From Dictyostelium discoideum (lineage: Eukaryota), in NCBI GenBank assembly GCA_000004695.1, contig CM000153.2:3808001-3872000 (forward strand): a DNA stretch of 64,000 nt, in the 5' to 3' direction. Positions 50,078-64,000 of the stretch are shown here, piece by piece. The notes under the pieces were generated by a model. That model did no database searches, was not told the origin of the DNA, and worked only from the letters and a program-made list of their open reading frames with translations. Position 1 is the stretch's first letter, and each line of letters starts with the position of its first letter. The translations under genes and the position numbers were made by a program.

Positions 50078-51821
50078 ATGAATTTATGTTTGATTGATCC
50101 TTTTAAACAATCGGATGTACCAGAAACAGTAGAATACTATTTGGTTGATCCAAAGAATATTAAATCAAATTGTGCATCATTCAATAGAAGAGGTACTTTA
50201 CTTGCAGTTGGTTGTGCAAGTCCAATAGGAAAGATATTAGTATGGGATTTTGATACAAAAAAGATTGTTAGAACATTATATCATCATACTGGTTGTGTAA
50301 ATTCAATATCGTAAGTTATTTATTAATTTATTTATTTATTTATTTACTTACTTACTCGGTTATTTTTTAAAATAGTTGGTCTAGAAATGGTAAAAAGTTA
50401 CTTACGGCAAGTAATGATGGATCACTTGTACTTTGGGATTTAGCAACATCAAAAATACTCTACAGTTTAGAATTAGAGTCACCAATTTTATTTGCTGAAT
50501 TTCATCCAAGAAATAAGTAAATATTATTTTATTATTATTTATTATTTCTTATTTATTATTTATTATTTATTATATTTATTAATATATTTTGTTTTTTTGT
50601 TTTTGTTTTTGTTTTAGTGATTTATGTTTAATAGTTTTACAAAAAGGTACAGATCCAATATTATTAAATTTTAAAAGTAGTGAAAAAACACCATTGAATA
50701 TAAAATCATTAGTAACAAGTTATATAAAGAGAGAAGAGAATTCAACTGGTGTAATTCCAACTAGTGTAAATAGTAATTATAATGGTGTGGCAACATTTGC
50801 ATCATTTAATAGAAGAGGTGAAAAGATATTTTTTGGTGATAGTTGTGGTATGATATCAGTATTGGATTTTAAGAGTATGACAATCGATAGACAATTCAAA
50901 GTTGCCTCATCAAATACAACTGTGAAACAAATTGAGTTTAGTAGAAATCATAGATTCATGTTAGTTTCATCATCTGATAAAGTGTTACGTTTGATTTCAT
51001 TAGAGTCAACTAATTTGTATCAGCAGATGCGTGAATATCAAGATAGTGTCAATAGAATGCATTGGAAGAAATGTTGTTTCAGTAGTAACAATGAGTATGT
51101 AGTGGGTGGTATGAATCATAAATCAATTCATAGTATTTTCATTTGGAGTGTTAGTGGTAGTTTAGTTAAAGATTTAGAAGGTCCAAAAGAAGGACTGGTA
51201 GATGTCGTTTGGCATCCATTAAGACCAATCATTGTTAGTATAAGTTTCACTGGAGTAATTTATGTTTGGACTGCTTATTTCGAAGAGAATTGGAGTTCAT
51301 TCGCTCCTGATTTTCAAGAATTGGAAGAGAATTTAGATTATGTTGAAGATGAGGATGAATTTGATGCAAAAGATAGTGATAATGAAAATCAAGAAGTTAA
51401 CAATAATAACAATAATAATATTGGTCGTAACCCTTATAAGAAAATTAAAACTCAACAAGAATTAAATGATAAAAACTCTGAAGAAGAAGAGTTTGTAGAT
51501 GTTGATCATAATGATAGAATAACTGAATTTAGTAGTGATGAAGAGGAAGATTTATTTTGTTTCTCTGCTATTGATGATAGATACGTTTCAAATGTTAAAT
51601 TTGATGATCCAAGACATCCACTCTATGAAAAATATCAAAAAGATAAAGAAGACTCTTCTTCAACCACTTCAAATTCAACAATATCATCATCATCATCACC
51701 ATCACCATCATCATCATCAACTACAACAACAACAACTACATCTCAAAAAAAGGATGAAACTCAAAAAAAAGAAAAATCTACAAAAAAAGAAAGAAATTCT
51801 GATTCAAAAAAAAGAAAATAA
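50078..51821 (+). CDS. RBBP5/Swd1 ortholog (WD40 subunit of the COMPASS/Set1 H3K4 methyltransferase complex), 3 exons
   Basis: Exon 1 is 50078..50310 (MNLCLIDPFKQSDVPETVEYYLVDPKNIKSNCASFNRRGTLLAVGCASPIGKILVWDFDTKKIVRTLYHHTGCVNSI), with donor GTAAGT at 50311. Exon 2 is 50376..50516 (SWSRNGKKLLTASNDGSLVLWDLATSKILYSLELESPILFAEFHPRN), with donor GTAAAT at 50517. Exon 3 is 50618..51821 (NDLCLIVLQKGTDPILLNF...FNRRGEKIFFGDSCGMISVLDF...RMHWKKCCFSSNNEYVVGG...VVWHPLRPIIVSIS...ENWSSFAPDFQELEEN...*). It is collinear with human RBBP5 throughout. About 525 aa. Confidence 0.9.
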
Positions 51822-51997: not shown

Positions 51998-52462
51998 TTA
52001 ATAAATAATAGCAACACCATATGTATTTAAAATATATTCTAAAGTATCTAAAAAGTTTGGTTTTGATTTTAATGGATAAGTCATCCAAACTATTTTTTTT
52101 GAATATGGATGTTGAATAATTGGAATTTCAATATCTAAAACATAATCATAATATTGTGGATTTTCTAATGTTACATTTGTAAATTGTGGGAATTCTTTGA
52201 ATGTTGAATCACCATATACATCGAATCTTAATTTTTGAATATCAGTTTGTAATAAAACCTGAGTGTTATATCTTGTTGATAAAGTTTTCATGTCAATCTC
52301 AACAATTTCATTAACATCGTTTATACCGCCAGTTTTTTTAACAACTAAAACACCATTATGTGGAATTTGAGGTATTGGTATTCTCATTTCTTTTGGTGAT
52401 ACATGAACTATTAATTGATTAAATATTATTAATCCAATAATTATAAAAATCATTTTCATCAT
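51998..52462 (-). CDS. Small secreted protein (154 aa) with N-terminal signal peptide, unknown function
   Basis: The ORF is MMKMIFIIIGLIIFNQLIVHVSPKEM... with a hydrophobic signal-like N-terminus followed by a compact non-repetitive domain (NVTLENPQYYDYVLDIEIPIIQHPYSKKIVWMTYPLKSKPNF...). It lies convergent with the RBBP5 3' end, 176 bp away. Confidence 0.5.
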   Translation of the reverse strand: MMKMIFIIIGLIIFNQLIVHVSPKEMRIPIPQIPHNGVLVVKKTGGINDVNEIVEIDMKTLSTRYNTQVLLQTDIQKLRFDVYGDSTFKEFPQFTNVTLENPQYYDYVLDIEIPIIQHPYSKKIVWMTYPLKSKPNFLDTLEYILNTYGVAIIY

Positions 52463-52840
52463 TTTTTTGACTTTTTTTTTTTTTTTTTTTTGTTTTAGAG
52501 AATTGAATTATTTAAATTGGATTTTTTTTAATTCTATAAAATTTGAATAAACAATGTTTTTTTTTCAAAATAAATAAAATTTTAAAATTATAATTAATAA
52601 AATTATTATTTTTTAAATTAAATTATTTATTTTATTTTTATTTTAAAATTATAATATTAATAGTTCTAATTATCAGTTAAAATTGATTTAAAAACAAAAA
52701 AAGATTGGATATTTAAAATATAAAAATAATTTTTAAAATTAATAGCAATTAAAAAAAAAAAAATAGTATACTCATTTGTTAGTTATTTTTTATTAATTAA
52801 ATTATAATAATTTGAAAAAATCAAGTTACAAGTTTTATTG

Positions 52841-52871
<31 letters not shown>

Positions 52872-53548
52872 AAAAAAATTTTCAATACCCAAATTTAAAT
52901 AAATATTTTAAATGTAGTTTTTTTTATTAATTATTGTTGGTTTTTTTTTTTTTTACCAATATTAAAAAAAGATAAATCTTTTTGACTAGAATTGGGAGAA
53001 ATAAATAGATAATTAAAGTAGTATCTATGTAAAATTGTTATGGGGTTTTTTATTTAAAATTTCATTTATTAAATCTTACAAATTATTTATTTAATTCATA
53101 ATATTGGTGTTAAAAATAATTGAATATGTTATTACCCCATTATTCGCTTAAACAATCATACGGTAAATTATAATTATTACACAGTTATGGGGTATTAAAA
53201 TTAATTTTTTTTTTTTTTTTTTTTTTTTCATTTATAAATATCCAAAAAAATAAATAAATTATATGATCATAATCTTTAACATTTATTTTATTTTTTATTA
53301 TTTTTTTAAACTAATATTTTTTTTAATTAATTATTTTTATTATTATTAATATATTTAATTACAGTGTGTGTGAATGCGTATTGAAGGATAGATTTTGTTT
53401 ATAAAAAAATAAAAAATAAAAAATAATGGTGCTAATACTGTGGAAATACCACCTTTTTTAAAAAAAAAAATATAATGTAGGTGGTAAATAAAAAAAAAAA
53501 ATGTGTGATCAAAGTTTTTATTTTATATTTTTGAATTTAAATTTATAA

Positions 53549-56500
53549 CTACAATCCAAATCTTTTGATTTTTTTGGTATTTGATTTGTTACCACTACTG
53601 TTATTATTATTACTATTATTGGTACTGGGTGTAGAATTTGTGATTAATGAAGATTTTTTATTATCAAAATTAATATTATTATTTATATTAGTTGTAGTAT
53701 TAGTAGTAGTTGTAGTGGTGGTAGAAGTTTGATTTACTTTTATAGTACCTTTTTCTTTAGCATTAATAATATTACTATTATCAATATTATTGTTATTATT
53801 ATTATTATTGATATTATCATTAATTTTATCTTTAATTGGATCTAATTTTCTTTTTTTATCTTTTAATGATTTTTTGATTGAGAAAAACATTGGACCCATT
53901 TCAGCTAACCAATTTGGGTCAACAGCGGTTACAATTTGCATATATTCTTTTGAGGTCATAACTAATTCATGGTAGACAATATAGTCGGGAGCATAACCAA
54001 GACCATAGAGTGCACTTGTTGGATGAAGGAAACATGGCATACCATTTCTCATGTTTACATATTCACCAATACCTTTAATCTTTGCAGAATGATGAAAGTA
54101 AGAAGAAGTGATAGCCTTTCTAATGATATCCCAATTTGAACCACATGATTCAACCTTCATATCATGTTGTACCATAATATCCAAGAGTTGACCACGAACC
54201 TCTCTAACTTTTCTCATTGCTTTAATGTGAATATAATGTTCAGCACACCATTGTGAGCTATAGTTGTTGATTTTCCATTGTTGATAAACATGTAACAATG
54301 TTAGATGATCGGATTCTGGAACAAAGAATTTCTCTCTTGAGGCATCACTCTCTTCTTCAGCACCTTTAGGTCTATAGAAAACTGATGGCATTGATAACAT
54401 ACTAACGATTGTAACTATATCTTGACCACACCCCAATTGCTCTGCAACTATAACCATTTTCGATAGTGGTGGATCCAATGGAAATTCCGACATTCTCTTA
54501 CCCAATGGTGTGATTTGACCTTGATCATCCAATGCTCCCAATACCCAAAGTTGATACATTGAATTCAAAATATTATCTTGTGGTGGTGGATCCATAAAAT
54601 CAAAATCCAATAAATTCTTTACACCCATTGATTTAAGATTCAATACTACATTACCAAGATTTGTACGTTGAATTTCTGGTATATTATTATCCATCAATTC
54701 ATATTTAAAAGCGGATTCAGTGTATAATCTATAACATCTACCAGGACCAGTACGACCAGCTCTACCTGAACGTTGATTTGCATTTGCCTTACTGATGGGT
54801 GTGACTTGTAATGAATCCATACCAACTCTTGGATTGTAAACTTTTAATTTACAATAACCAGTATCGATAACATAGAGAATACCATCGACAGTCAATGAAG
54901 TCTCTGCAATATTTGTGGCGATAATACATTTCCTAGAGCCATTATCTGCTTTTTCAAAGATTTTAGCTTGCATATCTGATGGTAATTGAGAGTAAATTGG
55001 TAACAATGTTAATGGTGGTGCTTGTGGTCCCAATTGTTTAATTCTTTCTTCAACGGTTGCACAAGTGGTTTCAATATCTTCTTGACCAGTCATAAACACC
55101 AGTATATCACCAACACCCTGAGTCACATGTATTGATAGAATTTGTTTAACTGCTGAATCAACATAATCTTCACATGGGGTTTTACTCCAAAGTACATCGA
55201 CTGGAAAAGTTCTACCTGGTATAGTGAATACGGGTACATCACCGAAAAACATTGAAAACTTTTTACTATCCATTGTTGCAGATGTTACAATTAATTTCAT
55301 ATCATATCTTCTTGACATTACCTTTTTTAAAATACCAAATAACACATCAGTATTTAATGAACGTTCATGTGCTTCATCCATAATGATTGCAGAGTATTTA
55401 TCCAAGTTTGGGTCATTAAATGACTCTCTTAATAAAATACCATCAGTCATATATTTAATTGCAGTTTCATTGGATGTACAATCTTCAAAACGAATTGAAT
55501 AACCAACTTCATTACCTAAAGTAACAGACATCTCTTCACTTACACGCTTTGCCACACTAACTGCAGCAACCCTTCTTGGTTGGGTACATCCAATTTTTCC
55601 AAATTTTGAATAGCCATCTTCATATAGATATTGAACCAATTGAGTGGTTTTACCTGAACCAGTCTCACCAACTATAATGATTACATTATTCTCTCTAATG
55701 ATCTTCATTAAATCATTTCTACAACCAAATATTGGTAAAAATTCACGTTGTTCTTTTATTGTTTTGGTTTTTGAGAATTCACTTGACCCTTCAGTTGGTT
55801 TATTTGGTGTTAAATGGGATGCAAATTGTGATTGTGCTTTATAATTTAAAACTTCACCGGTTTCTTTATCAATTTGCTCACCACCACCACCGCCATTGGC
55901 TAATTGCTGTTCTTTTTCTTTTTCATCCTCACTCTTTATACCCATAATTTTACCAATTGCCGTACCACCCAACTCCCAAACTTTCTTTTGACTTTTTATT
56001 CGGTCACGTTTCTCTCTAAACTCTTTCATTAATGCACTACCTTTTCTTGAAATAACAGCCATATCAGAAGTTGGATCTTTAACGGTTTGAACGGCACGTT
56101 GCTGTTTGGTTAACACTTGATGACCATCTAAAAAAGGTGGAATTGTATTATGAACTAAAAGATTAACTCTATTCTCATCATCTTCTTGTAAATGATCCAA
56201 ATCGATTTCATTTTGTAATATTACACCACTTTGCATTAATCTATTGGTTTCCCATCTTGAATTATCCTCATTCATTTGATTTTGTTTTGCTGTTACTTTT
56301 TTCTTTTGTGATCTTGTGAATTCTTCTTCCATCTTTTTAAATTTCTTTTCATCACCTAAAAATACACTATCAGCATTACTACTATCAAAAACACCACCTT
56401 CACCTTCATCTGCATCATAATATCCTCTATCAAATTCTTCTTCTTCATATTCTTCTTCTTTTAAATGTGGTTTTTTATTATTATTATTATTATTTTGATT

Positions 56501-57399
56501 ATTTTGATTATTTCTACCTGACCATGAATTATAATTATGAGATGGTGTTCTTTGTGGAGTGTCATATGGTCTGTTATTATTATTTCTATTATTTTGTTGT
56601 TGTTGTTTTTGTTGTTGATTATATCTACTTGGTGTTTGATCATTATCTCTATTTCTTTGAGGTGTATCAAAAGGTCTATTATCACCACCACCTCTATCGA
56701 TATCACCTTTTCTATAATCATTTCTATTTATACTTCTATCGTCCCTTTTATATGATGGATCTCTATTTGAATCTCTTGATGGTGTTTGATCATTATATCT
56801 TCTTTGTGGAGTTTCAGAGTTTTTATTAAAATCCTCACCTCTCCTATATGATGAACTTCTGTCATCTCTTTTATAATCTTCTCTATTGCTACTTCTATCA
56901 TCCCTTCTATAATCATCCCTATTACTACTACTACTACTACTTTTATCATCCCTTCTATAATCATCTCTCCTATTACTACTACCACTTCTATCATCTCTTC
57001 TATAATCATCTCTATTACTACTTCTATCATCTCTTCTATAATCATCTCTATTACTGCTCCTATCATCTCGTCTATCATATGATGATGAAGAAGAAGAAGA
57101 AGAATTTCTTTCATAATCATTTGAACGAATTGGTGTTGATTTTATCTGTCTATAATGTTTTTCAGGTTTTTTGAATGAAGATTCATCATTATCATTATAA
57201 TTATCATTATTACTATCGTCATCATTATTAAATCTATCTAATAATTCTTTTCTTCTTTTCTCTTCTTGTTCTTCTCTTTTTTCTTTTGCTAAAATATCTA
57301 AACCTAAAACTGATTTTTTCACTTGTGGTATTTTAAATTGTTCCTGTAATAAAAGTTATTGTTTCTTTTGTTAATATTAATAAACTCTAAATATTAAAG

Positions 57400-57431
<32 letters not shown>

Positions 57432-57824
57432 ATTTTTATTTTTATTTTTACCTACATCATTATTTGTTGAATTTTTTCTTGTAATTAAACCGCCTTTCAT
57501 AGTTTCTGCTAATGGTTGATTTGATTGAGTTGTTGTTGACGTATCTTTTGTAAAAGATAATGAAGTTCTTTCACCACTACTACTATTATTACTTTCATTT
57601 TTATTTGTTGATTTTTTAACTTTATCATAAATATCATCAATTATATAATCATCAGGTTTAATACCATATTGAGCACATGATTTTATAAATTGTTCTTTAT
57701 TATTGGATCTAATAACTTCATTAAAAATTCTTAATGCAAGTGTTTGATTTGTTGTTGGTAATTTTAATGATTTTGATACTTTTTCTCCAATATCTTGTAT
57801 TAAATCCCTATCAACATTATCCAT
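53549..57824 (-). CDS. Pre-mRNA-splicing DEAH-box ATP-dependent RNA helicase PRP16 / DHX38 ortholog, 2 exons (N-terminal exon previously looks like an independent small ORF)
   Basis: Exon 1 is 57456..57824 ([21 protein letters not shown]...NSTNND), with donor GTAGGT at 57455-57450 and phase 0. Exon 2 is 53549..57343 ([25 protein letters not shown]...), with acceptor ttattacAG at 57345-57344. The exon-2 ORF has no ATG; the track starts it at a GTG. It aligns with human DHX38 from [21 protein letters not shown] through NEDNERWETNRM, LVHNxxPPFLDG, [20 protein letters not shown] and [12 protein letters not shown] to the C-terminal RFGL. The R/D/S/Y-rich low-complexity region sits at 56400-57150. 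About 1387 aa. Confidence 0.85.
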
Positions 57825-58186
57825 TTTTAATATATATACATATAAATATTATTTATATTATTTGTATTTGTTTTTTCAGTTGATAATTTTTCAAAAATTG
57901 AAAAAACAAGTAAAATATCAGATTTTTGAAGGGTCTTTTTTTTTTTTTTTTTTTTTTTTAATTAACGAAATTGTTACAGATGTGGAATATTTTTTTTTTA
58001 ATTTTTTGGACTTTTAAAGAATTTTCACTTTTTTTTTTAATTTTAATTTTTTTTTTTTTTTTTTTTTTCTTCATTCCCATTTTTTATTTTTACTTTTTTT
58101 TTTATTTTTTAAATTAAATAACAAACAAAAATAAATTTATATTTTTTTAATGTGTATTTGTATAATAAAATAAATATTATAAAATT
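57825..58186. promoter_or_regulatory. Short (362 bp) bidirectional intergenic region between the divergent start codons of the PRP16/DHX38 and PRP2/DHX16 helicase genes
   Basis: The PRP16 exon-1 ATG is at 57824 (minus) and the PRP2 ATG at 58187 (plus). The spacer is AT-only with T-runs on both strands (T24 at 57937-57960, T20 at 58050-58069), as typically precede dictyostelid transcription starts. Confidence 0.4.
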
Positions 58187-61100
58187 ATGAGTAGTAATAA
58201 TGAATCAATAAAGAATTGGGTATCAGATAAGATTTTCGATATCTTGGGATATCGTGAATCTACAATGGTTGATTATATAATTGCATTATCGAAAAAAGCA
58301 AAAGATGTAAATTCATTTATATCAACATTAACAGAACAAGATTTTCCAATAAATTCCAATACAAAATCATTTGCTCAAGAGTTATTAAATAAATCACAAC
58401 AAAAAATTCAAAATATAACTTCTTCATCTTCTTCATCTTCTTCAACTTCATTATCATCATCATCATCATCAAAAGATAAAGAAAAAGAAAAAATTGAATT
58501 TTTAAAAAAGAATAAATCATATAAATTAGTTATTGATCATGATGATGATATTGTAAATAGTAGTGGAAGTAGCGATAGTGATAGCGATAGTGAAAGAAAA
58601 AGAAAAAAAAAAGAAAAAAAAAAAGAAAAAAAAGATAAAAAAGATAAAAAAGATAAAAAATCATCAACAAGAAAGAAATCTGATAATAATTGGGATGATG
58701 AAATTGAACCTGAACCAATTAAACCCAATGAAAAAGAAGATGAAAATAATAATAATGAAAATAATGATAATAATAATGACAATAATAATTTACAAAAAAG
58801 GCAACCATATAAATCAATAATTGAAGAAGAAAATAATAATGATAATAATAATAATAATGGAGAGGAGGATGAATATGAAAGAGAACAAAGAGAAGTTAAA
58901 GAATTAAGTGATAGAATAAAGAAAAGAGATGAAAAATCAACTAAAAAGAAAATAGTTGATGATTCAGAAACTAAAGAATCAATTGAAAGAAAGAATAGAT
59001 TAGAACAAAATGAACAATTAGAAACTGAAAGAACTAAATCTCGTAGAAAATATTTAGTTGGTGAAGAACAAAAACGATTAATCCTCTTAAAGAGAGAGAT
59101 TGAAGAAGAGTATGAATTATTTAAAGATCAAAAATTAACAGAACAAGAGATTAAAGATTTTGAAAAAAAGAAAAAATTATATGAATTAGCAAGTCAACGT
59201 ATAAATGAATCACAACAATCTGATGACTATTATCAATTACCTTCAGAAATTAAAGATAAAGATTCATTATTAAAATCATCATATATTAATGATAATAAAA
59301 ATAAAAAAGGTAATGACTCGTCATCATCGTCATCATACAATCCAGAACAAAAAGAATGGGAACAAAATAGAATGAAATCAGCAATTTCAGAGAATAGAGG
59401 ATTATCAACAGCCAATATTGGTGGTGGTAATGAAGAGTATGAATATGTATTTGAGGATCAAATTGAATTTATTAAAGAGGAAGTATTAAAGCAAGGACAG
59501 AAGGGTGATGGTGTAATGATATTGAAACCTGGTGATGATGGGTCAGCACAAGCAAAGATGACAATTCAAGAGGTTAGAAAATCATTACCAGTTTATCCAT
59601 ATCGTGAACAATTGATTGATGCAGTCAGGGAATATCAAGTTTTGATTATAGTTGGAGAGACAGGATCTGGTAAAACCACACAAATTCCACAATATTTACA
59701 TGAAGCTGGTTTTTCAAAAACTGGTAAAATCGGATGTACCCAACCAAGAAGAGTTGCTGCCATGAGTGTTGCAGCTAGAGTAGCAGAAGAGGTGGGTTGC
59801 AAATTAGGTAATGAAGTTGGTTATTCAATTCGTTTCGAAGATTGTACATCACAGAAAACAGTTTTGCAATATATGACCGATGGTATGTTGGTGAGGGAAT
59901 TCTTAACCGCACCTGATTTGGCAAGTTACTCTGTATTGATCATTGATGAAGCCCATGAGCGTACACTTCATACTGATATTCTATTTGGACTGTTGAAAGA
60001 TATCACAAGATTTAGACCCGATCTCAAGTTGTTGATCTCATCTGCAACAATGGATGCTGAAAGATTCTCTGATTATTTCGATGGTGCGCCAACTTTTAAT
60101 ATTCCAGGAAGAAAATATGAAGTTACCACTCATTACACTCAAGCACCCGAAGCCGATTATTTAGATGCAGCGGTTGTAACAGTACTTCAAATTCATATCA
60201 CTGAACCTCTAGGTGACATTTTAGTGTTTTTAACGGGTCAAGAAGAAGTTGATCAAGCCGCTGAGATGTTGCAAACTAGAACCAGAGGATTGGGTACGAA
60301 AATAAAGGAATTAATTATCACTAGAATCTATTCAACACTTCCAACCGATTTACAAGCTAAAATCTTTGAACCAACACCACCAAATGCAAGAAAAGTAGTA
60401 TTGGCAACCAATATCGCCGAGACTTCTTTGACAATTGATGGTATTATCTATGTGATTGATCCAGGATTTTGTAAACAGAAAATGTTTAATCCACGTACTG
60501 GTATGGAATCATTGGTGATTACACCAGTAAGTAGAGCATCAGCCAATCAAAGAAAAGGAAGAGCTGGTCGTGTTGCACCTGGTAAATGTTTTAGATTATT
60601 CACTGCTTGGGCATTTGATAATGAATTAGAGGAGAATACAATTCCAGAGATACAGCGAACAAATTTAGGTAATGTTGTATTGCTGTTGAAATCAATGGGT
60701 ATCAATGATTTAATGAATTTCGATTTCATGGATCCGCCACCTGCTCAAACTTTAATCGCTGCATTGGAACAACTTTATGCATTGGGTGCTTTGAATGATC
60801 GTGGTCAGTTGACAAAATTGGGTAGAAAAATGGCTGAATTTCCAGTGGATCCACAATTATCAAAAATGATCATCGCAAGTGAAAAATATAAATGTAGTGA
60901 AGAGATTCTTACAATTTGTGCAATGTTAAGTGTTGGTAATACCATTTTCTACAGACCAAAGGATAAAGCATTTGCTGCTGATGCCGCTAGGAAATTGTTT
61001 TTCCATCCACAAGGTGACCATTTAACATTGATGAATGTCTTCAATCAATGGCGTGAATCAGGTTATGCCGTTCAATGGTGTTTTGAAAATTTCATTCAAC

Positions 61101-61498
61101 ATCGTTCAATGAAACGTGCTCAAGATGTTAGGGATCAATTGGAGCTATTATTAGAACGTGTTGAAATTCCATTGGTTTCAAATGTTGACGATACAGATTC
61201 CATTAGAAAATGTATAGCCTCTGGTTTCTTTTATAACTCTGCAAAATTAGAGAAATCAGGTTTATTTAGAACTACAAAACATAATCAAAGTGTTCAAATT
61301 CATCCCTCTTCTTGTTTATTTCAATCACCTCCGAAATGGGTTGTCTATCATGAATTGGTTTTAACTACTAAAGAATTTATGAGACAAATTGTTGAAATTC
61401 AATCTTCTTGGCTTCATGAAATTGCTCCTCATATTTATAAAGAAAAAGATGTAAATGATAATCAAAAATTACCAAAAAATATTGGTAAAAAACAAATT

Positions 61499-61507
<9 letters not shown>
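58187..61507 (+). CDS. Pre-mRNA-splicing DEAH-box ATP-dependent RNA helicase PRP2 / DHX16 ortholog
   Basis: Single 1106-codon ORF. The N-terminus [28 protein letters not shown] matches the DHX16 start ([25 protein letters not shown]). The helicase core is nearly collinear with human DHX16: [81 protein letters not shown] and [13 protein letters not shown]. Confidence 0.9.
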
Positions 61508-61542
<35 letters not shown>

Positions 61543-62187
61543 ATTTTTATTTTTTTTTTTTTTTCCCAAAATAAAAAAAGAATTTTTTTTTTTTATTATT
61601 ATTAAAAAAAAAGAATCAAACAATTCAAAGTAATCAATTGGGTTTATTAAAAAAATTTATTGATTTTTGGATCTTTTATTAAAAAAAAAAAAAAAAGGGA
61701 AAAAAAGTTGGGTTTGTCAACAATTGGACGTTTTTGTTTTGTTGAATCAAAAATCTTTTTTTTTTTTTGTCGTTTTTTTTTTATTTTTTTTTTTTGATAA
61801 TTTTATTTTTTTTTTTTGATAATTTTATTTTTTTATTTTTTTCATTTTTTCAAAGAAATCATTTGATAATTACAAAGCCATAAAAAATGCAAAAATAAAA
61901 AAAAAAATTTTATGAAAAAAAATAAAAAAATAAAAAAAAAAAATAAAAAAATAAAAAAAAAAAAAAAACACAACTTTTATTTTTAGTACAACAACTAAAA
62001 AAGACTTTTAAATTATTTAAACATAAAAAAAAATCATTAAAAAAAACAAAGTTTTGTACAATACTATTTATTTATTCACTGTTGTAATATAGAAAAAAAT
62101 ATTTATTTATAGAATTAAAAAAAAAAAAAAAAAAAAATTGTAAGTGATCTTAAAAAAAAAAAAAAAAAAATAATAATAATAATAATA

Positions 62188-62223
<36 letters not shown>

Positions 62224-62920
62224 AATAAAATAAAATAAAATAAAATTTATCATTTAATTATTTGAATTGAATCAAAATAAATTAAATAAAAATAAATAAA
62301 TAAATAAAACAAAAATTCAACCCCTCTATCATGTTTTAGTTGGTGTTATTGTATCATTTTTGTGTTTTTTTTTTTTTTTATTTTTTGAAAATAATCACCA
62401 CAACCCAATATTAGCACCTCATCGAAAAAACAAACCATATCAAAAAAAAAAAAAAAAAAAGGAAAAAAAAAAAAAGGAAAAAAAAAAAAATAGAAAAAAA
62501 AAAAAATAGAAAAAAAAAATAGAAAAAAAAAATAATATTGTTAGATGTAACACACTCAAAAACCAATTTAACACACTCAAACCCATTTATTAATATTTTT
62601 AATTTATTTTTATTTTCCAATTTTTTTTTCTTTTTTTTTTTTAATTATTACTTTTTTTTTTTTTTTTTTTAATCATCATCAATTGTTAAAATATTATTAT
62701 TATTTTTTTTTTCAACTGATAAATTATATTATTTATTTATTTATTTTTTACATTTAAATATTAACAATAAAAAAAACAAATTCTACATATTTTTATTTTT
62801 TTCATAGCAATAAATTAGTCAACTTTTTTTAAAAATTTAAAAAAGGTATATAAAAAAAAAAAAACTCAAAAATCCAAAAATAACCAAATTTAAAAAGAAA
62901 TAAAATAAAAAAATAAAAAA

Positions 62921-63030
62921 ATGGATGAAGTATTAGAAATGATTGCTGATGCAGTTTCCTCATTGGTTGTTGCAATCACAGATAGTGAAGAGAAAAATAC
63001 TCTTTTTGGTGTATGTATAAAATAAGAAGA

Positions 63031-63070
<40 letters not shown>

Positions 63071-64000
63071 TAACAATTAATATTAATTTATTAATTTATT
63101 TAATTTATTTATTTTATTATTATTATTATAATATAGGATATGGTACCAGGTGTTGAATTAATTCAACAAGCAGTTAATGGAATGGCAGAAGCAGCAGAGG
63201 AAACAGTATCATTAATTGATGAAGAGTTTATTGGACAATTAGAGAGTACATCAAAACAATTAAAGAATTCAGCAGGTCAATTATATGTTCATGCAGTTCG
63301 TGCAAGAGAAGATCCATGGAATAGAGTACCACAAAAGGATGCAATTAAAGCAGCCAAACAAATTCTTCAAAATGTTGTATTATTGGTATTGATTGAAGAG
63401 CAATCAAACATTAAGGTATTGGTAAACATTGCAAAGAAAGCAGCTGAAGGTGTAAGAAGAATCGATGAGATTGAAAATATTAAGCAATTGGATGTTATGA
63501 TTGGTGACGTAAATCAATTACAAAATGAATTGGTTAAAAGATCACAACGTCGTTCAGAGGGTAGCCACAATCCAGAGCTACGTTCAAAACTTGAAGATAT
63601 CGCCACAATGGTAAACATACTCTCTGAACAACATCAAGCAAGTGCTCGTGATGTTTGTAGAAATCCAAGAGAGGAAACCCTAAGATCAAAACGTTCAGAA
63701 CTTTCAAGTAAATTATTATCAGCAATCGATGATTTAATCTACACTATTAAATTGATTTTCGAGAATAATACAAAATTCGTTGATCTCGCTTTCAAATGGA
63801 AACCAGTTCGTACAATGGCTGAAGATGAAGTTACTCGTGCCTCCGCTGTTCTTATTGATAATCTTCGTACACTTCCAAAATCAATTGAGGCTGGTAATGG
63901 TCCAGCAGCAGCTAGAGAGATTGTCAATGCTGCAAACTTACAAATTTCAAATGCAATCATCGTTGCAAATCGTTGTCAAGATCCAGTTAAAAAGAAAATG
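62921..64000 (+). CDS. Vinculin/alpha-catenin family protein, N-terminal part (gene continues beyond window end), at least 2 exons
   Basis: Exon 1 is 62921..63010 (MDEVLEMIADAVSSLVVAITDSEEKNTLFG), with donor GTATGT at 63011. The AT-rich intron is 63011..63136. Exon 2 runs from 63137 to at least 64000, in frame to the window edge (DMVPGVELIQQAVNGMAEAAEETVSLIDEEF...VLLVLIEEQSNIKVLVNIAKKAAEGVRRIDEIENIKQLD...). The helical-bundle pattern resembles the vinculin/alpha-catenin N-terminal D1 region. Comparatively GC-rich, expression-optimised codons. Confidence 0.6.

What the first reader, a model, noticed from the sequence alone, without database searches (positions are those of the whole stretch)
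53549..61507. Head-to-head pair of paralogous spliceosomal DEAH helicases (PRP16/DHX38 and PRP2/DHX16) sharing a 362-bp promoter; PRP16 start codon lies in a separate upstream exon
The two second-step and first-step spliceosome remodelling ATPases are encoded divergently with only 362 bp between their ATGs. This arrangement suggests a shared bidirectional promoter for stoichiometric co-expression. The 3.8-kb PRP16 helicase ORF (53549..57343) has no ATG of its own; the ORF finder had to use GTG. Its N-terminus is supplied by what the ORF track shows as an unrelated 145-aa ORF (57387..57824), spliced GTAGGT...ttattacAG in phase 0. The junction reproduces the human DHX38 motif [17 protein letters not shown] as NSTNND|[19 protein letters not shown].
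Basis: partly seen in the sequence, partly recalled or inferred. Interest (0 to 1): 0.55.

Follow-up and report, generated by a model that had tools for sequence, protein, structure and literature searches.

The report
Adjacent PRP16 and PRP2 helicase genes
Two ordinary, already annotated Dictyostelium discoideum splicing-helicase genes (PRP16/DHX38 and PRP2/DHX16) sit back to back 362 bp apart; the gene models and the intron are right, but nothing shows that the neighbourhood has a special regulatory purpose.

Summary
The window is Dictyostelium discoideum AX4. The minus-strand gene has exon 1 at 57824..57456, a 112-nt GT-AG intron at 57455..57344 and exon 2 at 57343..53549. The plus-strand ORF 58187..61507 is identical to XP_638017.1/Q54MH3 (DHX16_DICDI). 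Both gene models are therefore already public.

Orthology is clear: human PRP16 scores 1246 bits against 847 for DHX8, and human DHX16 scores 1119 against 867. The intron is supported by in-frame stops, by a donor and acceptor conserved at the same codon in D. firmibasis, and by homology that runs across the junction.

The head-to-head pair also occurs in D. firmibasis, Cavenderia fasciculata and Acytostelium subglobosum, so it is probably ancestral to Dictyostelia. It is broken in Heterostelium album, Tieghemostelium lacteum and Polysphondylium violaceum. DHX16's linkage to an unrelated vinculin-family neighbour is kept at least as often.

A shared bidirectional promoter is plausible because of the short spacer, but it is untested. 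"Stoichiometric co-expression" has no support. The finding is ordinary, known genome organisation and of low interest.

The parts
53549..57343 (-). PRP16/DHX38 orthologue, exon 2 (1264 codons plus stop at 53549..53551). It encodes the SLLGLD motif, an RD/RS-like low-complexity region, the DEAH helicase core ([23 protein letters not shown]), the WH/ratchet/OB domains and the C-terminal RFGL.
   Evidence: Searches give the ORF, frame and motifs. One search gives Pfam DEAD, Helicase_C, HA2_N, HA2_C and OB_NTP_bind. One search shows human PRP16 as the best hit at 1246 bits. One search shows the spliced product is identical to XP_638016.1.
57344..57455 (-). Phase-0 spliceosomal intron of PRP16: 112 nt, GTAGGT...T30...TTATTACAG, 11.6% GC.
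   Evidence: Searches show the boundaries, the in-frame stops and the frame preserved after removal. Searches show an intron at the identical codon in D. firmibasis (GAT|GTATGT...CAACAG|GAA) with unrelated internal sequence. One search shows that removing it reproduces the public protein exactly.
57456..57824 (-). PRP16 exon 1 (ATG at 57824..57822, 123 codons). It encodes a ~72-aa four-helix N-terminal domain, an S-L-x-F motif and the GGLI motif.
   Evidence: the GGLI...EQFKIP...SVLGLD stretch aligns with human residues 21 onward across the junction. AF2 model with pLDDT 84 and four helices; the same domain sits at the N-terminus of PRP16-like proteins in other dictyostelids and in other organisms.
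57825..58186 (.). Divergent intergenic spacer of 362 bp at 11.6% GC. It must hold both promoters and both 5' UTRs.
   Evidence: It has the same orientation and a short spacer in D. firmibasis (383 bp), C. fasciculata (151 bp) and A. subglobosum (about 212-227 bp).
57936..57959 (+). T24 run (plus strand) followed by AATTAACGAA. This is the only non-trivial block shared with the D. firmibasis spacer.
   Evidence: The function is not tested. Oligo(dT) runs upstream of start sites are typical of Dictyostelium promoters (established knowledge).
58047..58068 (+). T22 run (plus strand), about 120 nt upstream of the DHX16 ATG.
   Evidence: The function is not tested.
58187..61507 (+). PRP2/DHX16 orthologue: a single exon of 1106 codons plus stop, with an N-terminal PWI-like domain and the DEAH helicase core.
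   Evidence: ORF; human DHX16 is the best hit at 1119 bits, and its N-terminus also aligns. Pfam domains, with PWI at 22.0 bits against a cut-off of 22; identical to XP_638017.1/Q54MH3 (DHX16_DICDI).

Best explanation
These are the two ordinary, already annotated D. discoideum genes for the spliceosomal DEAH-box ATPases PRP16/DHX38 (minus strand, two exons, 1387 aa) and PRP2/DHX16 (plus strand, one exon, 1106 aa). PRP16's start codon and its N-terminal four-helix domain lie in a 369-nt first exon. That exon is joined to the 3.8-kb main exon by removal of a typical short, AT-rich, phase-0 GT-AG intron. The genes are transcribed divergently from a 362-bp AT-rich spacer that necessarily contains both core promoters. 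The head-to-head arrangement is an old piece of dictyostelid microsynteny, present in groups 1, 2 and 4, and it has been broken several times. It is best read as inherited gene order in a compact genome, where breaks inside a very short divergent spacer are disfavoured, and not as a device for matching the doses of the two helicases. Shown here: the gene structures, the orthology, the identity with public models and the distribution of synteny. Inferred: that both promoters lie in the spacer and that the adjacency is largely neutral.
For:: both proteins are exact matches to XP_638016.1/Q54MH4 and XP_638017.1/Q54MH3 of D. discoideum AX4; the best PDB matches are human PRP16 (1246 bits, against 847 for DHX8 and 769 for DHX16) and human DHX16 (1119 bits, against 867 for DHX8 and 722 for PRP16); the nearest named homologues are DHX38/PRP16/DEAH7 and DHX16/DEAH1 respectively; the two window proteins are only 50% identical in the core; the DNA-level inverted repeats between them are only 73-74% complementary, so there has been no recent duplication or gene conversion. 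Intron. In H. album, residues 1-189 align as one uninterrupted stretch across the junction position. Synteny: head-to-head in D. firmibasis, C. fasciculata and A. subglobosum, plus consecutive gene numbers in two EukProt species. The pair is separated in H. album (different scaffolds), in T. lacteum (about 14 kb apart, same strand) and in P. violaceum. Local control: DHX16 remains linked to the vinculin-family gene in D. firmibasis, P. violaceum, C. fasciculata and T. lacteum. Average D. discoideum intergenic space is only about 700 bp at about 13% GC (PMC5295588), so a 362-bp spacer at 11.6% GC is unremarkable.
Against: The adjacency of two functionally related paralogues has a low prior (about 1e-3). 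It has survived in lineages spanning the deepest dictyostelid split, always with a short spacer (151-383 bp). Conserved divergent pairs tend to be functionally related in fungi and metazoa (PMC2871058). Some selective value of co-regulation therefore cannot be excluded. I had no transcript data, so the splice junction and the start sites rest on sequence and comparative evidence plus the public annotation. I could not compute a genome-wide background rate of adjacency retention.
Confidence: 0.8

Rival explanations
1. The 362-bp spacer is a truly shared bidirectional promoter, maintained by selection so that the first-step remodeller (PRP2) and the second-step remodeller (PRP16) are co-expressed in a fixed ratio.
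For: The spacer is short and the orientation divergent. The same arrangement with spacers of 151-383 bp occurs in D. firmibasis, C. fasciculata and A. subglobosum. Two more species have consecutive gene numbers. In other eukaryotes, conserved divergent pairs tend to be functionally related (PMC2871058).
Against: The pair has been broken in three dictyostelid lineages. It is no better conserved than DHX16's linkage to an unrelated vinculin-family gene. No conserved spacer motif is found across groups, and only one short block is shared with D. firmibasis. The pair is not seen on two non-dictyostelid contigs, and the genes are unlinked in human and yeast (own knowledge). PRP2 and PRP16 act at different steps as transient enzymes, not as subunits of one complex (established knowledge). 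In D. discoideum, divergent lncRNA-mRNA neighbours were not co-expressed above random (PMC5295588).
Confidence: 0.15
2. The head-to-head pair is a relic of the inverted tandem duplication that originally produced the PRP2 and PRP16 paralogues.
For: The two genes are paralogues: 50% identity over 682 residues, with 73-74% complementary inverted DNA repeats of 338-372 nt. They are arranged as an inverted pair.
Against: Each is much closer to its human orthologue than to its neighbour, so the duplication predates the last common ancestor of amoebozoans and animals. The arrangement is absent from two non-dictyostelid contigs and from human and yeast (own knowledge). Retention since the origin of eukaryotes in only one lineage is far less parsimonious than a secondary juxtaposition.
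Confidence: 0.03
3. The 145-aa ORF (57387..57824) is an independent small gene, and PRP16 starts downstream of 57343 at a non-AUG codon or at an internal AUG.
For: The ORF finder lists the 145-aa ORF as a complete ATG-to-stop ORF and lists the helicase ORF with a GTG start.
Against: The exact 145-aa sequence is not in the 15-billion-protein collection, whereas the spliced 1387-aa protein is. The last 22 residues of the ORF are intron read-through (poly-Phe from T30). Homology to human PRP16 (GGLI...FK.P...SLLGLD) spans the junction. H. album encodes the same N-terminal domain contiguously with the rest. PRP16-like proteins from other organisms carry the same domain followed by the GGL and SLLGLD motifs. 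The next in-frame ATG is at codon 461.
Confidence: 0.02

Closest known systems
Human DHX38 / yeast Prp16 (second-step spliceosomal DEAH-box ATPase)
   Same: It has the full helicase core and the WH, ratchet and OB domains. The PRP16-specific N-terminal motifs (GGLI, FK.P, SLLGLD, NEDN.RWE.NR) and the C-terminal RFGL are present. Human PRP16 is the best hit at 1246 bits over query residues 109-1289.
   Different: It carries an extra ~72-aa four-helix N-terminal domain (exon 1) that human PRP16 lacks: the alignment starts at human residue 21. It has Dictyostelium-type Asn/Thr-rich and [11 protein letters not shown] repeat insertions. [quoted passage not shown]
Human DHX16 / yeast Prp2 (spliceosome activation ATPase)
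   Same: Human DHX16 is the best hit at 1119 bits over residues 226-1102, and the N-terminal residues 7-170 also align. A PWI-like N-terminal domain is present. The protein is already named DHX16_DICDI.
   Different: It has low-complexity Ser/Lys/Asn insertions between the N-terminal domain and the core. [quoted passage not shown]
Bidirectional (divergent) gene pairs with spacers under 1 kb, as defined for mammals, fungi and plants (PMC2871058)
   Same: The orientation is divergent, the spacer is 362 bp, the two products belong to the same pathway, and the pair is conserved in several related species.
   Different: Start sites, shared elements and co-expression are not demonstrated. In a genome with an average intergenic space of about 700 bp, such pairs arise by default. 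The pair is not universally retained within Dictyostelia.

Membership tests
PRP16/DHX38 | DEAH-box SF2 helicase motifs I, II, III and VI ([15 protein letters not shown], QRxGRAGR) | tested here: met
   The motifs lie at residues 682, 779, 811 and 980 of the spliced protein.
PRP16/DHX38 | DEAH/RHA architecture: RecA1, RecA2, winged helix, ratchet, OB | tested here: met
   Pfam DEAD, Helicase_C, HA2_N, HA2_C and OB_NTP_bind all score above their cut-offs.
PRP16/DHX38 | Closer to PRP16 than to the other spliceosomal DEAH paralogues (PRP22/DHX8, PRP2/DHX16, PRP43/DHX15) | tested here: met
   Human PRP16 scores 1246 bits, against DHX8 847, DHX16 769 and DHX15 643. The nearest named database homologues are DHX38/PRP16/DEAH7.
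PRP16/DHX38 | PRP16-specific N-terminal motifs (GGLI, SLLGLD, NEDN.RWE.NR) and the C-terminal RFGL | tested here: met
   The alignment to human PRP16 runs from query residue 109. The protein ends in KRFGL, as do the orthologues.
PRP16/DHX38 | Acts at the transition from the first to the second catalytic step of splicing | not testable with these tools
   This needs genetics or biochemistry in D. discoideum.
PRP2/DHX16 | DEAH-box motifs and DEAH/RHA architecture | tested here: met
   The motifs lie at residues 490, 587, 619 and 788. The Pfam domains score above their cut-offs.
PRP2/DHX16 | Closer to DHX16/PRP2 than to the other paralogues | tested here: met
   Human DHX16 scores 1119 bits, against DHX8 867 and PRP16 722. 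The named homologues are DHX16/DEAH1, and UniProt already names the protein DHX16_DICDI.
PRP2/DHX16 | N-terminal PWI-like helical domain | tested here: inconclusive
   Pfam PWI scores 22.0 bits, exactly at the cut-off of 22 (E 2e-4), over residues 7-68. Residues 7-170 align with the human DHX16 N-terminus.
Canonical GT-AG spliceosomal intron | GT...AG boundaries; removal restores one open frame; stops within the intron | tested here: met
   GTAGGT...ACAG, 112 nt, phase 0, with stops in both relevant frames. The product is identical to the public model.
Canonical GT-AG spliceosomal intron | Position conserved in an orthologue while the internal sequence diverges | tested here: met
   D. firmibasis has GAT|GTATGT...(AAT)n...CAACAG|GAA at the same codon. 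The flanking exons are 80-89% identical at the protein level.
Canonical GT-AG spliceosomal intron | Junction observed in transcripts | not testable with these tools
   No transcript-derived protein spanning the junction was found.
Shared bidirectional promoter | Divergent orientation with less than 1 kb between the genes | tested here: met
   There are 362 bp between the ATGs.
Shared bidirectional promoter | Two divergent start-site clusters inside the spacer, and co-expression of the two mRNAs | not testable with these tools
   No CAGE, RACE or expression data were accessible.
Shared bidirectional promoter | Conserved shared cis-elements in the spacer | tested here: inconclusive
   Only a T-run followed by AATTAACGAA, plus a few 8-9-mers, are shared with D. 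firmibasis. Nothing is shared with C. fasciculata or A. subglobosum beyond AT-rich words.
Shared bidirectional promoter | Pair retained in evolution more than its neighbours | tested here: not met
   The pair is retained in D. firmibasis, C. fasciculata and A. subglobosum, and lost in H. album, T. lacteum and P. violaceum. DHX16's linkage to the vinculin-family gene is retained in four of the five other species examined.

The most novel reading that the evidence does not exclude
The PRP16-PRP2 divergent pair is a selectively maintained co-regulation unit dating from the last common ancestor of Dictyostelia. On this reading, a shared 150-400-bp bidirectional promoter couples the levels of the two sequentially acting spliceosomal DEAH ATPases, and the lineages that broke the pair (T. 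lacteum, H. album, P. violaceum) compensated in other ways.
Probability: 0.12. Interest if true: 0.35.

Novelty: already known. Interest (0 to 1): 0.12.

Why it matters
It matters little beyond quality control. It confirms that sequence reading alone recovered the correct two-exon PRP16 model and the correct orthology. It also adds a small comparative note: the PRP16-DHX16 head-to-head pair is ancestral to Dictyostelia but dispensable. If co-regulation were later demonstrated, this would be a tidy example of promoter sharing between consecutive enzymes of the splicing cycle. It would not change how splicing or Dictyostelium gene regulation is understood.

Tried and rejected
1. Exon 1 as an inverted duplicate of DHX16's 5' end. 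I asked whether PRP16 exon 1 arose by inverted duplication of the neighbouring DHX16 N-terminal PWI-like domain.
- hhalign of the two N-terminal alignments gave only Prob 33% and E 4e-4 over 68 columns.
- A profile search of 1.84 billion representatives found the domain at the N-terminus of PRP16-like proteins from other organisms and found no DHX16 N-termini.
- The idea is rejected as a dictyostelid event. An ancient relationship between the two domains remains possible.

2. Transcript evidence for the junction. Neither the exact look-up nor a homology search with the N-terminal 203 residues returned any RNA-derived fragment. This led nowhere.

3. Literature on the pair, on DHX16/DHX38 in Dictyostelium and on bidirectional promoters in Dictyostelium. 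No paper deals with this locus. Only general figures were usable.

4. Hidden RNA genes in the intron or spacer. There were no Rfam or tRNA hits in 52400..63200.

5. Recent gene conversion between the inverted paralogues. The inverted repeats are only 73-74% complementary, so this is rejected.

6. The pairing outside Dictyostelia. Two contigs from unidentified organisms show no pairing. The sample is too small to be conclusive.

7. The afdb50 fold library was not available.
Full report
**1. What is there**

The region is extremely AT-rich. Coding stretches have about 30-38% GC and non-coding stretches about 11-15%. The ORF list shows three relevant ORFs:
- a 1257-aa GTG-started ORF at 53549..57322 (-);
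- a 145-aa ATG ORF at 57387..57824 (-);
- a 1106-aa ATG ORF at 58187..61507 (+).

Reading the minus strand gives the structure of the minus-strand gene:

| Part | Coordinates | Size |
|---|---|---|
| Exon 1 | 57824..57456 | 369 nt, 123 codons |
| Intron | 57455..57344 | 112 nt |
| Exon 2 | 57343..53549 | 3795 nt, stop included |

- Exon 1 ends ...AAT AAT GAT and is followed by GTAGGT.
- The intron has 11.6% GC and contains a T30 tract. It ends TTATTACAG.
- Exon 2 begins GAA CAA TTT AAA, in phase 0.
- In the exon-2 frame a TAA lies five codons upstream of 57343. The only AG after that stop is the proposed acceptor.
- The exon-1 frame runs 22 codons into the intron (poly-Phe from the T-run) and then stops.
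- The next in-frame ATG in exon 2 is at codon 461.
- The two ATGs are 362 bp apart (57825..58186, 11.6% GC).

Every coordinate in the finding is therefore correct. The only slips are that the GTG ORF starts at 57322 rather than 57343, and that the quoted human motif omits four residues.

**2. Identity, and the fact that it is already annotated**

The 1106-aa protein is an exact match to XP_638017.1 / Q54MH3, which UniProt names [quoted passage not shown]. The 145-aa ORF is not on record as a stand-alone protein. The two-exon model and the neighbouring gene are thus part of the public annotation, with consecutive accession numbers.

**3. Orthology**

phmmer against all PDB chains gave the following scores:

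| Query | Best hit (bits) | Other spliceosomal DEAH helicases (bits) |
|---|---|---|
| Minus-strand protein | human PRP16/DHX38, 1246 | DHX8 847; yeast Prp16 825; DHX16 769; DHX15 643 |
| Plus-strand protein | human DHX16, 1119 | DHX8 867; PRP16 722 |

- The nearest named homologues in the 5.8-billion-protein collection agree: DHX38/PRP16/DEAH7 and DHX16/DEAH1.
- Both proteins have the full DEAH/RHA domain set and the canonical motifs.
- The two window proteins are 50% identical over 682 core residues.
- At the DNA level they share only 73-74% complementary inverted stretches.
- They are therefore ancient paralogues, with no sign of recent duplication or gene conversion.

**4. Evidence for the intron beyond the annotation**

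(a) The alignment with human PRP16 runs uninterrupted across the junction. Dictyostelium [15 protein letters not shown]|[25 protein letters not shown] aligns with human [41 protein letters not shown].

(b) In D. firmibasis the exon flanks are conserved and the intron sits at exactly the same codon (GAT|GTATGT ... CAACAG|GAA). Its interior is an unrelated (AAT)n repeat.

(c) In Heterostelium album residues 1-189 align as one continuous stretch. The annotated protein carries the N-terminal domain fused to the rest.

(d) A profile of the exon-1 domain, searched against 1.84 billion representative proteins, retrieves N-terminal fragments of PRP16-like proteins. In these the same domain is followed by the GGL and SLLGLD motifs.

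I could not obtain transcript-level evidence.

**5.

Using the dictyostelid orthologues, their genomic contexts and tblastn confirmation, the picture is as follows.

| Species | Group | Arrangement of PRP16 and DHX16 |
|---|---|---|
| D. firmibasis | 4 | Head-to-head, 383-bp spacer |
| Cavenderia fasciculata | 1 | Head-to-head, 151-bp spacer |
| Acytostelium subglobosum | 2 | Head-to-head, 305 bp by annotation; about 212-227 bp after correcting the truncated PRP16 start |
| Heterostelium album | 2 | Different scaffolds; PRP16's divergent neighbour is a NUDIX gene |
| Tieghemostelium lacteum | 3 | Same scaffold, same strand, about 14 kb apart with several genes between |
| Polysphondylium violaceum | not assigned here | No PRP16 within 8 kb of DHX16 |

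- Two further EukProt species have consecutive gene numbers for the two orthologues (gene7520/7521 and gene2543/2542).
- By parsimony the pair was present in the last common ancestor of Dictyostelia. It has been lost at least three times.
- As a local control, I asked which other window genes appear in the fetched loci. The vinculin-family gene that follows DHX16 (window 63137 onward) is still linked to DHX16 in D. firmibasis, P. violaceum, C. fasciculata and T. lacteum.
- DHX16's linkage to a functionally unrelated neighbour is thus retained at least as often as its linkage to PRP16.
- Two contigs from unidentified non-dictyostelid organisms show no pairing.

**6. The spacer**

- On the plus strand it contains T24 (57936..57959), T22 (58047..58068) and three T10 runs. 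There are TATAAA/TTTATA words near both ends.
- These features fit Dictyostelium promoters (established knowledge), but they also fit any Dictyostelium intergenic DNA.
- The alignment with D. firmibasis is poor outside the homopolymer runs. The only notable shared block is a T-run followed by AATTAACGAA.
- Nothing beyond AT-rich words is shared with C. fasciculata or A. subglobosum.
- The literature accessible here gives about 700 bp as the average D. discoideum intergenic space and about 13% GC for intergenic DNA. It found no general co-expression of divergent lncRNA-mRNA neighbours (PMC5295588).
- In fungi and metazoa, conserved divergent pairs are enriched for related functions (PMC2871058).
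- No paper on this particular pair was found.
- No Rfam family or tRNA lies in 52400..63200.

**7. Interpretation**

The descriptive part of the finding is right, and it is already public knowledge. With only 362 bp between the start codons, both promoters must lie in the spacer, so some sharing of elements is plausible.

The claim of a device for stoichiometric co-expression has no direct support, and several things argue against it:
- the pair has been lost repeatedly;
- it is no better retained than an unrelated adjacency;
- the spacer is not conserved;
- the two enzymes act sequentially and transiently, not as a complex.

The most economical reading is inherited microsynteny in a compact genome, where a very short divergent spacer offers few harmless breakpoints. 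I put the selected co-regulation reading at roughly 0.12-0.15.

**8. Side investigation**

PRP16 exon 1 encodes a confident four-helix domain (AF2 pLDDT 84, pTM 0.70) that human PRP16 lacks. Its pattern resembles the PWI-like N-terminus of the neighbouring DHX16, so I tested whether it was copied across the spacer. It was not:
- the profile-profile signal is weak (Prob 33%);
- the domain occurs at the N-terminus of PRP16-like proteins elsewhere, and no DHX16 N-termini were retrieved;

**9. Verdict**

Novelty: already known. Interest is low.

Noticed in passing
L006 6964..7257 (D. firmibasis, minus strand of the locus): The D. firmibasis PRP16 intron is 294 nt, a multiple of three, and has no stop codon. 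It is mostly (AAT)n. The public annotation therefore reads through it as a poly-Asn stretch, giving a single-exon 1490-aa model. The conserved GT/AG at the D. discoideum intron position suggests that this model is wrong, or that intron retention would be in-frame there.
   Followed up: partly
L002 9696..10000 (A. subglobosum): The annotated A. subglobosum PRP16 starts inside the N-terminal domain (MNEAYASKSL...). An upstream ATG at L002 9908 followed by a short intron would give the full domain (MNNPELSAEITGLVTKALQLD...IFNE|KCLEYG). The neighbouring DHX16 model is flagged partial and starts five codons before its likely ATG. The true spacer is about 212-227 bp, not 305 bp.
   Followed up: partly
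[not shown]
   Followed up: partly
window 63137..64000 (+), running off the window end: A vinculin-family gene (Pfam Vinculin, E 8.5e-11) lies downstream of DHX16. This linkage is conserved in D. firmibasis, P. violaceum, C. fasciculata and T. lacteum, which makes it a small conserved microsynteny block.
   Followed up: partly
window about 56839..57076 (-), PRP16 residues about 213-292: There are tandem degenerate peptide repeats ([12 protein letters not shown], about 6 copies), followed by repeated TPQR/TPSR motifs. This looks like a Dictyostelium version of the RS/RD-rich, TP-containing N-terminal region of human PRP16. H. album has analogous DDRRRYDQTPSR repeats.
   Followed up: no
L003/L007 (T. 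lacteum scaffold LODT01000039.1, 162001..183125): In T. lacteum PRP16 and DHX16 lie on the same strand about 14 kb apart. Here PRP16 lacks the N-terminal domain exon, and no trace of it was found in the 1 kb upstream. The rearrangement that split the pair may have removed PRP16's first exon.
   Followed up: partly
window 50589..51821 (+) and 51998..52462 (-): A WD40-repeat ORF with a C-terminal stretch weakly resembling SR-25 (a nuclear RNA-splicing-associated protein family; below the Pfam cut-off), and a 154-aa ORF with no Pfam match, lie beyond the 3' end of PRP16. Both are collinear in D. firmibasis (87-89% identity).
   Followed up: no
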